Counted from the stretch's first letter, positions 7,595-18,362 are shown. The stretch is 64,000 nt of DNA from Promethearchaeota archaeon (GCA_016839555.1 JAEOUA010000006.1:384001-448000), one strand, 5' to 3'. Notes: a model not told the origin generated them from the sequence alone. Translations and numbers: made by a program.

Positions 7595-7701
7595 CGCAGC
7601 GGATGGGATTCGAACCCATGCACGTATAAACGCACTGGCTTTTTGGCATAATAACCAGAATAGCTCCAAGCCAGCGCCCTACCAGGCTAGGCGACCGCTG
7701 C
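7595..7701 (-). tRNA. tRNA-Ser(GGA) with a 23-nt intron at 37/38 (7641-7663)
   Basis: Acceptor GCAGCGG/CCGCTGC with G discriminator; anticodon stem CTGGC/GCCAG; loop TT-GGA-G^A; long variable arm; T-arm ATGGG-TTCGAAT-CCCAT. Confidence 0.9.
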
Positions 7702-15213: not shown

Positions 15214-15426
15214 TTTGCTATACCTCTTTCATAAGTTCATATTATAAGCTCTTTCTTTATTCAGAGTTCTTATAAATATTATAAAAATCTTAATTTATAT
15301 AATTATTTAAACATTTTTTAAAATTTTAAGAAACCCTTTGTTATATTCTCATTAAGAATAAAATTTTTATTTTTTCTATTATATTATTTATTAAGGTTTA
15401 TGCTCCGCATTAAGCGCCAAGCCTGT

Positions 15427-15603
15427 GGTCCATTAGCTCAGCCTGGTTTAAAGGTTTCTTACAAGCTTGACTACAAGCGCAGGTCTTATAAATGACCGAT
15501 GGACATACAAAGAAAAAAGTGTCCATTCTCAATAAAAACCTGAGATCCGGGGTTCGAAATGAATCTCTGATTAAGAAATTTCATGAAAATCCCCGATGGA
15601 CCA
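15427..15603 (+). tRNA. tRNA-Ile(UAU) with three introns (15451-15474, about 15492-15537, 15559-15589)
   Basis: Acceptor GGTCCAT/ATGGACC with A discriminator; anticodon arm CAGGT-CTTATAA-ACCTG; T-arm CGGGG-TTCGAAT-CCCCG. Removing the three BHB-flanked inserts gives a 76-nt cloverleaf. Confidence 0.88.
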
Positions 15604-15722
15604 CTCTTTTTTTCTAAATCTTTAAAATATTATAACAAAGGAACTTTAAAAATTTTTAAATTAAAAATTCCCTCATTTTTGAAAATAAGGAGAAGATTGA
15701 AATATAAACAAACCAGAACGAA

Positions 15723-18239: not shown

Positions 18240-18362
18240 TGGCGGCCCTCGAGGGGAATCGAACCCCTACCCCTTCGCAGGGTAACTGGATTTGAAGTCC
18301 AGCGTCAGAGACCACTTATCTTTCGCAAGCGAAGCGCTTCCAAAATCCGACCGTCAAGGGCC
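18240..18362 (-). tRNA. selC: tRNA-Sec(UCA), 9/4 fold, encoded CCA, 30-nt insertion/intron in the D-stem (18316-18345)
   Basis: 9-bp acceptor GGCCCTTGA/TCGAGGGCC, G73, 4-bp T-stem, 6-bp anticodon stem with CT-TCA-AA loop, long variable arm. Splicing gives the 7-bp D-stem GTCGGAG-TGGT-CTCTGAC. Confidence 0.92.

What the first reader, a model, noticed from the sequence alone, without database searches (positions are those of the whole stretch)
15427..15603. tRNA-Ile with a UAU anticodon interrupted by three introns
Seen in sequence: exons 15427-15450, 15475-15491, 15538-15558 and 15590-15603 join into a 76-nt cloverleaf with anticodon loop CU-UAU-AA. Each insert has splice-motif geometry. D-arm (21/22): helix GGTT/GACT with bulges TAA and ACA. 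Anticodon (37/38 or 38/39): TTAT/ATAA helix plus an 8-bp ATGGACAT/GTGTCCAT stem. T-loop (59/60): textbook BHB with helix TTCG/TGAA and bulges AAA and AAT. Established: most archaea read AUA with an agmatidine-modified CAU tRNA (TiaS); UAU-Ile is the eukaryotic solution and is rare in prokaryotes; multi-intron tRNAs are best known from Thermoproteales. Inference: this probable Asgard archaeon decodes its abundant ATA codons in a eukaryote-like way, needs a broad-specificity splicing endonuclease, and needs a U34 state that avoids misreading AUG. Standard tRNA scanners could miss this gene.
Basis: partly seen in the sequence, partly recalled or inferred. Interest (0 to 1): 0.88.

Follow-up and report, generated by a model that had tools for sequence, protein, structure and literature searches.

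The report
Three-intron Asgard tRNA-Ile(UAU), no TiaS
This is a real isoleucine tRNA gene, cut by three small introns and carrying the unusual anticodon UAU, that most likely reads the very common AUA codon in a Loki-type Asgard archaeon whose whole order lacks TiaS, the enzyme most archaea use for AUA; a few other archaea are already known to do this.

Summary
The four exons join into a 76-nt cloverleaf that ARAGORN calls tRNA-Ile(TAT). ARAGORN and Rfam both miss the genomic gene. Homologous genes in over 40 related genomes all keep the anticodon loop CTTATAA. Relatives without the D-arm or T-loop intron carry exactly the predicted spliced sequence. The stems co-vary.

TiaS was not found in any of 68 sampled genomes of the family or 7 of the sister family, but it is present in 171 of 301 sampled Asgard genomes. 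AUA makes up 35 of every 1000 codons. Two EndA paralogues fit a two-subunit splicing enzyme.

Best reading: this tRNA is the AUA reader that replaces the TiaS and tRNA-Ile2(CAU) route. Splicing, charging and the state of U34 were not observed. My tRNA census is incomplete, so a hidden CAU isoleucine tRNA is not excluded.

It is a new member of known kinds. UAU without TiaS is published for Nanoarchaeum, Korarchaeum and ARMAN. Heavily interrupted Asgard tRNA genes are also published. I found no paper linking TiaS loss to Asgard archaea. This scan has already reported the same trait on other Asgard genomes.

One thing remains unexplained. The anticodon intron is always present and unusually conserved, with a co-varying hairpin followed by an invariant ACA.

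The parts
15360..15376 (+). Conserved upstream A/T motif (AAAATTTTTATTTTTTC), a promoter-like BRE/TATA candidate about 50-67 nt before the tRNA 5' end. It implies a 5' leader that RNase P would remove.
   Evidence: The same AAAATTTTTAT(T/G)TTTT motif lies upstream of the homologous gene in L004, L006, L007, L009, L013, L015 and L018. Its promoter function is inferred, not tested.
15427..15450 (+). Exon 1: acceptor 5' strand, U8-A9, D-stem 5' strand and D-loop (tRNA positions 1-21).
   Evidence: The acceptor stem co-varies in relatives: GGTCCAT/ATGGACC, GGTCCAG/CTGGACC, GCTCCCG/CGGGAGC, GGACTCG/CGAGTCC.
15451..15474 (+). Intron 1, 24 nt, in the D-arm between positions 21 and 22. It has relaxed bulge-helix-bulge geometry.
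   Evidence: Helix GGTT/GACT, bulges TA^A and AC^A, inner helix 6 bp. It is absent in L009, L012 and L019, whose sequence there (TGGTTAAAGCGCAGG in L009 and L019, TGGTCAAAGCGCAGG in L012) matches the predicted splice product. In 11 homologues the best motif gives the product TGGTTA/AAGCGCAGG.
15475..15491 (+). Exon 2: D-stem 3' strand, position 26, anticodon stem 5' strand and anticodon loop CTTATAA. The anticodon TAT is at 15487-15489.
   Evidence: The loop is CTTATAA in all 19 BLAST homologues and in 25 of 26 model hits (CTTATAT in the other). The anticodon is always TAT.
15492..15537 (+). Intron 2, 46 nt, in the anticodon loop (equally 15491-15536). It has a conserved 5' GACC, an 8-bp co-varying hairpin (15498-15505 with 15520-15527) and an invariant ACA at 15507-15509.
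   Evidence: It is present in every homologue. The structure is 92.6% paired over 37 distinct sequences, with 11 pairs showing compensatory change and 0 of 500 shuffles as good. The invariant columns are listed.
15538..15558 (+). Exon 3: anticodon stem 3' strand, variable loop AGATC, T-stem 5' strand and T-loop positions 54-59.
15559..15589 (+). Intron 3, 31 nt, in the T-loop between positions 59 and 60. It is a strict bulge-helix-bulge.
   Evidence: Helix TTCG/TGAA (4 of 4 pairs), outer helix 5 bp (the T-stem), inner helix 4 bp. It is present in 10 of 18 full-length homologues. It is absent in L004, L006, L011, L012, L015 and L017-L019, which have an uninterrupted seven-base T-loop (GGGGTTCAAATCCCC in L004 and L006).
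15590..15603 (+). Exon 4: T-loop position 60, T-stem 3' strand, acceptor 3' strand and discriminator A73. No CCA is encoded.
15607..15613 (+). Run of seven T three bases after the discriminator: a likely archaeal transcription stop.
   Evidence: Sequence. T-rich tracts follow the other tRNA genes of this genome. This is an inference.

Best explanation
The locus is the single-copy, functional gene for tRNA-Ile(UAU) of a Loki-type (Promethearchaeia) Asgard archaeon.

The likely pathway is as follows. The gene is transcribed as a precursor of about 200 nt. The tRNA-splicing endonuclease, here most likely a two-subunit alpha/beta enzyme, cuts out three introns: D-arm 21/22, anticodon loop 37/38 or 38/39, and T-loop 59/60. 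A ligase joins the four exons, and CCA is added. Isoleucyl-tRNA synthetase charges the 76-nt tRNA, which reads AUA directly with U34.

This replaces the usual archaeal route, a CAU tRNA whose C34 is converted to agmatidine by TiaS. That enzyme is missing from this whole order.

Shown here: the gene, its cloverleaf, its conservation, the intron boundaries, the failure to find TiaS, the abundance of AUA, and two EndA genes.

Inferred: transcription, splicing, charging with isoleucine, and whatever U34 state (for example pseudouridine, as in eukaryotes) prevents misreading of AUG.
For: - The spliced sequence is called tRNA-Ile(tat) by ARAGORN.
- Homologues in 19 relatives by BLAST, and in 24 of 25 family genomes plus 1 of 2 sister-family genomes by a covariance model, all have the TAT anticodon. 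There is one strong hit per genome.
- Natural 'splice controls' exist. L009, L012 and L019 lack the D-arm intron, and L004, L006, L011, L012, L015 and L017-L019 lack the T-loop intron. All have the predicted joined sequence.
- There are compensatory changes in the acceptor, T and anticodon stems and in the intron hairpin.
- The T-loop intron is a strict bulge-helix-bulge, and the D-arm intron has a 4/4 central helix.
- TiaS_FLD: 0 of 68 family genomes and 0 of 7 sister-family genomes, many of them 98-100% complete. It is found in 171 of 301 Asgard genomes and in all four archaeal controls.
- A whole TiaS protein from another Asgard genome finds nothing in this genome or in 28 of 30 relatives.
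- AUA is 35 per 1000 codons, 33.5% of Ile codons, and about twice as frequent as AUG.
- There are two EndA paralogues. One is close to crenarchaeal heterotetramer alpha subunits (3p1z_B, E = 5e-40).
- A TiaS-positive Asgard genome (G064) shows CAU but no UAU among its 38 recovered tRNAs.
- A complete sister-family genome (G032) has tRNA-Ile(tat) with only the canonical intron.
- An identical contig exists in a metagenome from another study.
Against: - No RNA data were available, so the spliced product, the charged amino acid and the modification at position 34 are all unobserved.
- The anticodon intron's 3' splice site is not a strict 3-nt bulge in register with the anticodon stem.
- The D-stem has a C13-A22 mismatch.
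- My census of tRNA genes in this genome found only about 35 loci. It found one CAU tRNA and no initiator. It therefore cannot exclude a hidden, heavily interrupted tRNA-Ile2(CAU).
- The genome is 92% complete.
Confidence: 0.85

Rival explanations
1. The UAU tRNA is real but is not the only AUA reader. A heavily interrupted tRNA-Ile2(CAU), missed by every finder, is modified at C34 by an enzyme unrelated to TiaS.
For: The tRNA census is clearly incomplete. The initiator, Asn, Tyr and about ten other tRNAs were not located, so hidden genes exist. Bacteria show more than one cytidine derivative for this job (PMC11938285).
Against: Neither the TiaS domain nor a whole TiaS protein finds anything in about 75 genomes of the order. 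The TiaS-positive genome that was sampled has CAU and no UAU, which fits replacement rather than coexistence. Published TiaS-less archaea (ARMAN) also lack the CAU isoleucine tRNA (PMC3239211).
Confidence: 0.07
2. The tRNA is made and charged with isoleucine, but its unprotected U34 reads both AUA and AUG to some extent. The lineage either tolerates some Ile-for-Met miscoding or relies on ribosome and synthetase changes, as Mycoplasma mobile does, rather than on a U34 modification.
For: Only one TruA/Pus1-family gene is present, as in other archaea. M. mobile uses an unmodified UAU anticodon (PMC3575796).
Against: The anticodon intron is kept in every homologue and is unusually conserved. That hints at a step acting on the precursor. 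Nothing here measures decoding.
Confidence: 0.05
3. The locus is a decaying or non-spliceable tRNA pseudogene, and the three 'introns' are insertions that inactivated it.
For: Standard finders reject it. The D-stem has a mismatch, and one splice site is only a relaxed motif.
Against: It is a single conserved copy in 40+ genomes, with compensatory changes in all stems and an invariant anticodon. Its inserts sit at splice motifs and are precisely absent in some relatives. About 70% of the tRNA genes found in this genome are longer than 92 nt, so interruption is the norm here.
Confidence: 0.02

Closest known systems
tRNA-Ile(UAU) of TiaS-less archaea: Nanoarchaeum equitans, Candidatus Korarchaeum cryptofilum (PMC6000648) and ARMAN-2, -4 and -5 (PMC3239211)
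   Same: A UAU anticodon is encoded in the gene, no TiaS homologue is present, and there is an intron beside the anticodon. Introns are reported for Korarchaeum and ARMAN-2, and the ARMAN-2 precursor was cleaved in vitro by its EndA.
   Different: Those genes are reported with a single canonical intron, whereas this one has three. The lineage is Asgard, for which I found no paper mentioning TiaS or agmatidine. Here the anticodon intron is conserved in sequence across a whole family.
[quoted passage not shown] 2024, PMC11291895; Goswami et al. 2026, bioRxiv 10.64898/2026.10.13.758758)
   Same: There are several tRNA-type introns per gene, many of them non-canonical and in the D-arm. They are often missed by standard annotators, sit at bulge-helix-bulge motifs, and occur alongside two EndA paralogues.
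   Different: Those studies centre on Atabeyarchaeia and Jordiarchaeia/Freyarchaeia and do not discuss isoleucine decoding (no mention of Ile, UAU or TiaS). This genome belongs to a Loki-type family.
Eukaryotic tRNA-Ile(UAU), including the three-intron gene of the red alga Cyanidioschyzon merolae (PMC9602550)
   Same: UAU is the AUA reader, and an anticodon-loop intron is always present. [quoted passage not shown] In yeast the intron is needed for pseudouridine at positions 34 and 36.
   Different: No orthology is shown. Only one TruA/Pus1-family gene is present here. The modification state is unknown. The resemblance to C. merolae may be coincidence.
Multi-intron tRNAs of Thermoproteales (Sugahara et al. 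2008, as cited in PMC11291895)
   Same: Up to three bulge-helix-bulge introns per gene, at positions such as 59/60. They are processed by a heterotetrameric EndA.
   Different: A different phylum, and those organisms use TiaS with a CAU tRNA (the latter from my own knowledge).

Membership tests
tRNA (class I cloverleaf), isoleucine isoacceptor | A 7-bp acceptor stem, D-arm, 5-bp anticodon stem with a 7-nt loop and U33, a T-arm with a TTCRANY loop, and a discriminator base | tested here: met
   ARAGORN on the joined exons gives tRNA-Ile(tat), 76 nt. There is one C13-A22 mismatch in the D-stem.
tRNA (class I cloverleaf), isoleucine isoacceptor | Selection on the structure, shown by compensatory base changes in stems across relatives | tested here: met
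   The acceptor, T and anticodon stems co-vary. The anticodon is invariant in 40+ genomes.
tRNA (class I cloverleaf), isoleucine isoacceptor | Charged with isoleucine by IleRS | not testable with these tools
   Only indirect evidence: A37, A38, A73, C4:G69 and U12:A23 are present in the sequence. These are Ile identity elements in E. coli, from my own knowledge.
Archaeal bulge-helix-bulge (BHB) tRNA introns | [quoted passage not shown] | tested here: met
   The T-loop intron meets it strictly (helix 4/4, outer 5 bp, inner 4 bp). The D-arm intron meets it with two G-U pairs and a 2-bp outer helix.
Archaeal bulge-helix-bulge (BHB) tRNA introns | The same geometry for the anticodon-loop intron | tested here: inconclusive
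   The helix TTAT/ATAA and the 5' bulge are present and conserved. The 3' side is a 2-nt bulge opposite C32, not a 3-nt bulge in register with the anticodon stem. This is a relaxed form.
Archaeal bulge-helix-bulge (BHB) tRNA introns | Precise absence in some orthologues, leaving the predicted exon junction | tested here: met
   The D-arm intron is absent in L009, L012 and L019. The T-loop intron is absent in eight homologues.
Archaeal bulge-helix-bulge (BHB) tRNA introns | Cleavage by EndA and ligation in the cell | not testable with these tools
   No sequencing run on record as RNA holds the stretch. Two EndA genes are present.
TiaS-independent AUA decoding by tRNA-Ile(UAU) | A genomically encoded UAU anticodon | tested here: met
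   An identical contig exists in an independent metagenome.
TiaS-independent AUA decoding by tRNA-Ile(UAU) | No TiaS gene | tested here: met
   TiaS was not found in this genome (92% complete), in 68 family genomes or in 7 sister-family genomes with PF08489. The archaeal controls ring. It was also not found with a whole TiaS protein.
TiaS-independent AUA decoding by tRNA-Ile(UAU) | No tRNA-Ile2(CAU) | tested here: inconclusive
   Only one CAU tRNA was found (C4:153046-153175, elongator type). The census misses the initiator and about ten other tRNAs.
Eukaryotic-type tRNA-Ile(UAU) with intron-dependent pseudouridines 34 and 36 | An intron next to the anticodon in every copy | tested here: met
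   It is present in all 19 BLAST homologues and all 26 model hits.
Eukaryotic-type tRNA-Ile(UAU) with intron-dependent pseudouridines 34 and 36 | Pseudouridine at positions 34 and 36, made by a Pus1-type enzyme on the precursor | not testable with these tools
   There is one TruA/Pus1-family gene, as in other archaea. No modification data exist.

The most novel reading that the evidence does not exclude
The anticodon intron may be kept because the wobble uridine has to be modified on the precursor, as in eukaryotic tRNA-Ile(UAU).

A specific, speculative form of this idea follows. Intron bases 4-7 (GRCC) pair with tRNA positions 29-32. This short helix stacks on the 8-bp intron hairpin to give a helix of about 12 bp. 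One variable base and an invariant ACA follow.

This copies the T-arm plus acceptor minihelix with its N-CCA tail. It puts U33 and U34 where U54 and U55 sit. A pseudouridine-55 synthase (aCbf5, whose PUA domain binds ACA or CCA, or Pus10) could then make pseudouridine 34 before the alternative, splicing-competent fold forms.
Probability: 0.12. Interest if true: 0.8.

Novelty: new member of a known kind. Interest (0 to 1): 0.45.

Why it matters
AUA is one of the ten commonest codons in this genome, so the cell depends on whatever reads it.

The work shows that a whole order of Asgard archaea has dropped the standard archaeal TiaS/agmatidine route. It uses a UAU tRNA with an obligatory anticodon intron, which is the arrangement eukaryotes use. 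Other Asgard families keep TiaS.

This gives a datable switch inside the group closest to eukaryotes. It also gives, in the cultured relatives, a direct way to ask how U34 is kept from reading AUG.

On the practical side, standard annotation leaves these genomes apparently unable to read AUA, because the gene is invisible to common tRNA finders.

Tried and rejected
1. Complete tRNA census of the genome. I tried four custom finders:
   - loop-intron-tolerant cloverleaf search;
   - anticodon-arm-first search for CAT and TAT;
   - acceptor plus 5'-motif search;
   - removal of 742,000 bulge-helix-bulge candidates in intergenic DNA followed by the cloverleaf search.

   I also ran BLAST with tRNAs taken from relatives. 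Together these gave about 35 loci, including one CAU tRNA. The initiator, Asn, Tyr, Glu(TTC) and others were never found. The census cannot settle whether a CAU isoleucine tRNA exists.

2. Sequence greps for an initiator-type anticodon arm gave only noise.

3. Expression. No run on record as RNA holds the stretch. Laying DNA contigs showed one identical contig from another study and fragments of relatives' genes, and nothing about splicing.

4. Rfam at a permissive threshold over the locus gave only chance-level hits, E above 1.

5. The genome-collection pattern scan with GCGCRGGTCTTATAA was too unspecific. It was still useful for organism names.

6. The covariance model of the anticodon arm plus intron is too specific to find UAU or CAU relatives outside the order. 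I therefore did not test whether the other TiaS-less Asgard families carry UAU.

7. Origin of the UAU tRNA from tRNA-Ile2(CAU). Its identity to a TiaS-positive genome's Ile2-like CAU tRNA is the highest among those compared (0.74), but the margin is too small to decide.

8. A second Pus1-like enzyme was sought. Only one TruA-family gene is present.

9. Reading the intron as a box C/D or H/ACA guide RNA was rejected. No box C/D motifs are conserved, and the intron is too short for an H/ACA hairpin with a pocket.

Full report
**The observation**

The window lies on contig C5 (384001-448000) of a 3.74-Mb genome. The genome has 29.5% G+C, 12 contigs and is estimated 92% complete.

Joining its four proposed exons gives 76 nt, which ARAGORN folds as tRNA-Ile with anticodon TAT. 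The fold has a perfect 7-bp acceptor stem (GGTCCAT/ATGGACC), anticodon stem CAGGT/ACCTG, loop CTTATAA, variable loop AGATC, T-arm CGGGG-TTCGAAT-CCCCG and discriminator A. The one blemish is C13-A22 in the D-stem.

The unspliced gene is invisible to ARAGORN, even with its intron option. It is also invisible to the Rfam tRNA model at gathering and at permissive thresholds. The 177-nt precursor folds far better than shuffled copies (z = -5.1). Its minimum-energy structure already contains the acceptor stem, the T-stem and the intron hairpins.

**Is it a real gene, with these boundaries?**

BLAST of the locus against 40 relatives found a homologous locus in 18 of them. A covariance model of the anticodon arm plus intron then found one strong hit in 24 of 25 sampled genomes of the family and in 1 of 2 of the sister family. 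Every copy has the anticodon TAT.

The relatives act as natural splicing controls.
- L009, L012 and L019 have no D-arm insert. At that place L009 and L019 read TGGTTAAAGCGCAGG and L012 reads TGGTCAAAGCGCAGG, which is the predicted exon junction.
- L004, L006, L011, L012, L015, L017, L018 and L019 have no T-loop insert and carry an uninterrupted seven-base T-loop (GGGGTTCAAATCCCC in L004 and L006).
- L007, L014 and L016 carry a fourth insert in the D-loop.
- L017-L019 carry one in the variable region.

The acceptor stem changes in a compensatory way between relatives: GGTCCAT/ATGGACC, GGTCCAG/CTGGACC, GGGCCAT/ATGGCCC, GCTCCCG/CGGGAGC, GGACTCG/CGAGTCC. The T-stem does the same. A pseudogene or a sequencing error at position 34 is therefore excluded. 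In addition, a 330-nt contig in a marsh metagenome from a different study is identical over 15380-15650. That run may itself be a source of near-identical DNA.

**Splice motifs**

I used the canonical geometry on each strand: four helix bases, then a 3-nt bulge cut after its second base.

- The T-loop insert is a strict bulge-helix-bulge at 59/60. Its helix is TTCG/TGAA, its bulges are AA^A and AA^T, the T-stem is the outer helix, and it has a 4-bp inner helix. The same motif holds in 7 of the 10 homologues that have this intron.
- The D-arm insert has GGTT/GACT (two G-U pairs), bulges TA^A and AC^A, a 6-bp inner helix and a 2-bp outer helix. In 11 homologues the best-scoring motif yields the junction TGGTTA/AAGCGCAGG, identical to the intron-less genes L009 and L019.
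- The anticodon insert pairs positions 33-36 (TTAT) with ATAA or GTAA near the intron's 3' end. Its 3' cut site is a 2-nt bulge opposite C32 rather than a strict 3-nt bulge, so it is a relaxed form.

Over 37 distinct sequences, the anticodon stem, this helix and the intron hairpin are 92.6% paired. Eleven pairs show compensatory change, no shuffle out of 500 reaches this, and shifted controls reach 36-41%.

**The AUA-decoding context**

ATA accounts for 35 of every 1000 codons in 1406 long ORFs. That is 33.5% of Ile codons and almost twice the frequency of ATG.

The Pfam TiaS domain PF08489 finds nothing in this genome. All four archaeal control genomes ring. Across 301 sampled genomes of the phylum it is present in 171. 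It is absent from all 68 of this family and all 7 of the sister family, many of which are 98-100% complete. It is also absent from five other families that I did not examine further.

A complete TiaS protein from a TiaS-positive Asgard genome finds nothing in this genome or in 28 of 30 relatives. The two exceptions are a partial N-terminal match in an incomplete genome of another family and a marginal hit.

A complete TiaS-positive genome (G064) yielded 38 tRNAs, with two CAU and no UAU. One of the CAU tRNAs is Ile2-like and is the closest of those compared to the UAU tRNA (74% identity). That margin is too small to prove descent. A complete TiaS-negative genome of the sister family (G032) has tRNA-Ile(tat) with only the canonical intron, which ARAGORN finds readily.

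**What I could not show**

My own census of tRNA genes in this genome recovered about 35 loci. Of the 36 loci counted, one of them a likely false positive, 26 are longer than 92 nt and so are probably interrupted. There is a single CAU tRNA, at C4:153046-153175. It is an elongator-type gene whose D-arm intron resembles the one in the UAU gene (CAAGCTTGGCTAC versus CAAGCTTGACTAC).

The initiator and about ten other tRNAs were not found by any method. The absence of tRNA-Ile2(CAU) therefore rests on the absence of TiaS, not on the census. No RNA data exist for the stretch.

**Splicing enzyme**

The genome has two EndA paralogues, each with the N-terminal and catalytic domains.
- The 198-aa protein is closest to solved chains 3p1z_B, 3ajv_B, 2cv8_A and 2zyz_B (E = 5e-40 to 4e-30). 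From my own knowledge these are catalytic subunits of crenarchaeal heterotetramers.
- The 208-aa protein is much more divergent.

This fits the two-subunit architecture that handles non-canonical introns. It agrees with the published survey in which 44 of 60 Asgard genomes had two paralogues (bioRxiv 10.64898/2026.10.13.758758, section 2.6).

**Identity of the organism**

The same multi-intron gene sits in GenBank MAGs labelled Promethearchaeota or Promethearchaeia archaeon. These come from several studies. One is labelled Hodarchaeota. A Woesearchaeota genome carries a tRNA-Ile(tat) with a nearly identical anticodon arm and T-arm and one 60-nt canonical intron.

**Comparison with what is known**

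tRNA-Ile(UAU) without TiaS is published for Nanoarchaeum and Korarchaeum (PMC6000648) and for ARMAN, where the intron-bearing precursor was cleaved in vitro (PMC3239211). Bacteria such as Mycoplasma mobile also use UAU (PMC3575796).

Asgard tRNA genes with several introns, many missed by tRNAscan-SE and many in the D-arm, are published (PMC11291895; bioRxiv 10.64898/2026.10.13.758758). The preprint does not mention isoleucine, UAU or TiaS. No paper in the searchable library contains both 'TiaS' and 'Asgard', or both 'agmatidine' and 'Lokiarchae'.

The red alga C. merolae has a tRNA-Ile(UAU) gene with introns in the same three arms (PMC9602550). That is a striking parallel, but orthology is not shown.

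This scan has already followed up the same trait on other Asgard genomes. Those reports reached the same reading.

**The unexplained part**

The anticodon intron is present in every copy and is far better conserved than the other two introns. It has a 5' GRCC, an 8-bp hairpin in which 7 pairs co-vary, and an invariant ACA one variable base after the hairpin's 5' strand. The ACA is conserved even in the sister family.

GRCC can pair with tRNA positions 29-32 (89.7% of cells paired; changes are on one side only, because the exon side never varies). That short helix abuts the hairpin. In the window's own sequence the result is a 12-bp stack followed by N-ACA. These are the dimensions of the T-arm plus acceptor minihelix with its N-CCA tail, and U33 and U34 fall in the place of U54 and U55.

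Archaeal Cbf5 makes pseudouridine 55 without a guide RNA and is anchored by its PUA domain to the CCA end (PMC2018633; PMC1616971). I offer intron-dependent pseudouridine 34 formation by such an enzyme only as a low-probability hypothesis. The helix lengths vary by one or two pairs in some relatives. The short helix is not evident in the sister-family gene.

**Verdict**

This is a confirmed, functional-looking three-intron tRNA-Ile(UAU) gene. It very probably replaces the TiaS route in this order. It is a new member of two known kinds, with one open question: why the anticodon intron is so conserved.

Noticed in passing
G000 C4:153046-153175 (+), outside the window: This is the only CAU tRNA I could find, an elongator Met type with an odd T-loop (CTCGTAT). 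It has a D-arm intron at the same site as the UAU gene, with a similar 3' part (CAAGCTTGGCTAC versus CAAGCTTGACTAC). In several homologues the intron's 3' part looks like a copy of the D-loop (CAGCTTGGCCAAC). That hints at origin by local duplication or at copying of an intron between tRNA genes.
   Followed up: partly
window 15498-15527, and alignments A1 and A2: An invariant ACA (15507-15509) follows the co-varying hairpin of the anticodon intron in 43 sequences from two families. The loop around it varies freely. No known motif explains this.
   Followed up: partly
whole genome G000: Neither the four custom finders nor BLAST with relatives' tRNAs could locate the initiator tRNA, tRNA-Asn, tRNA-Tyr, tRNA-Glu(TTC) and about eight others. 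They are either missing from the assembly or built in a more exotic way, such as introns in stems or split or permuted genes.
   Followed up: partly
G000 C1:402640-402680: The sequence AAATCCCGCT, 16 nt, then AGCGGGGTGG reads like a tRNA 3' end followed closely by an initiator-like 5' end. This recalls permuted tRNA genes. I could not build a tRNA from it.
   Followed up: partly
L041 (GenBank OZ242164, Woesearchaeota), around 1966-1980: This is a DPANN tRNA-Ile(tat) with a 60-nt canonical intron. Its anticodon arm and T-arm are almost identical to those of the Asgard gene (CAGGTCTTATAA ... GCCTGAGGTCCGGGGTTCAAATCCCCG).
   Followed up: no
window 7595-7701 (-) and 18240-18362 (-): Two more intron-bearing tRNA genes lie in the window. 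One is tRNA-Ser(GGA) with a 23-nt intron (ARAGORN and Rfam). The other is the tRNA-Sec already noted by the scan.
   Followed up: no
G026 C79:18969-19412 (locus L267): A 387-aa ORF in a same-order genome (66% complete) matches only the N-terminal 150 residues of TiaS (37% identity, E = 2e-13). It may be a TiaS remnant, a related kinase-type domain or contamination.
   Followed up: no
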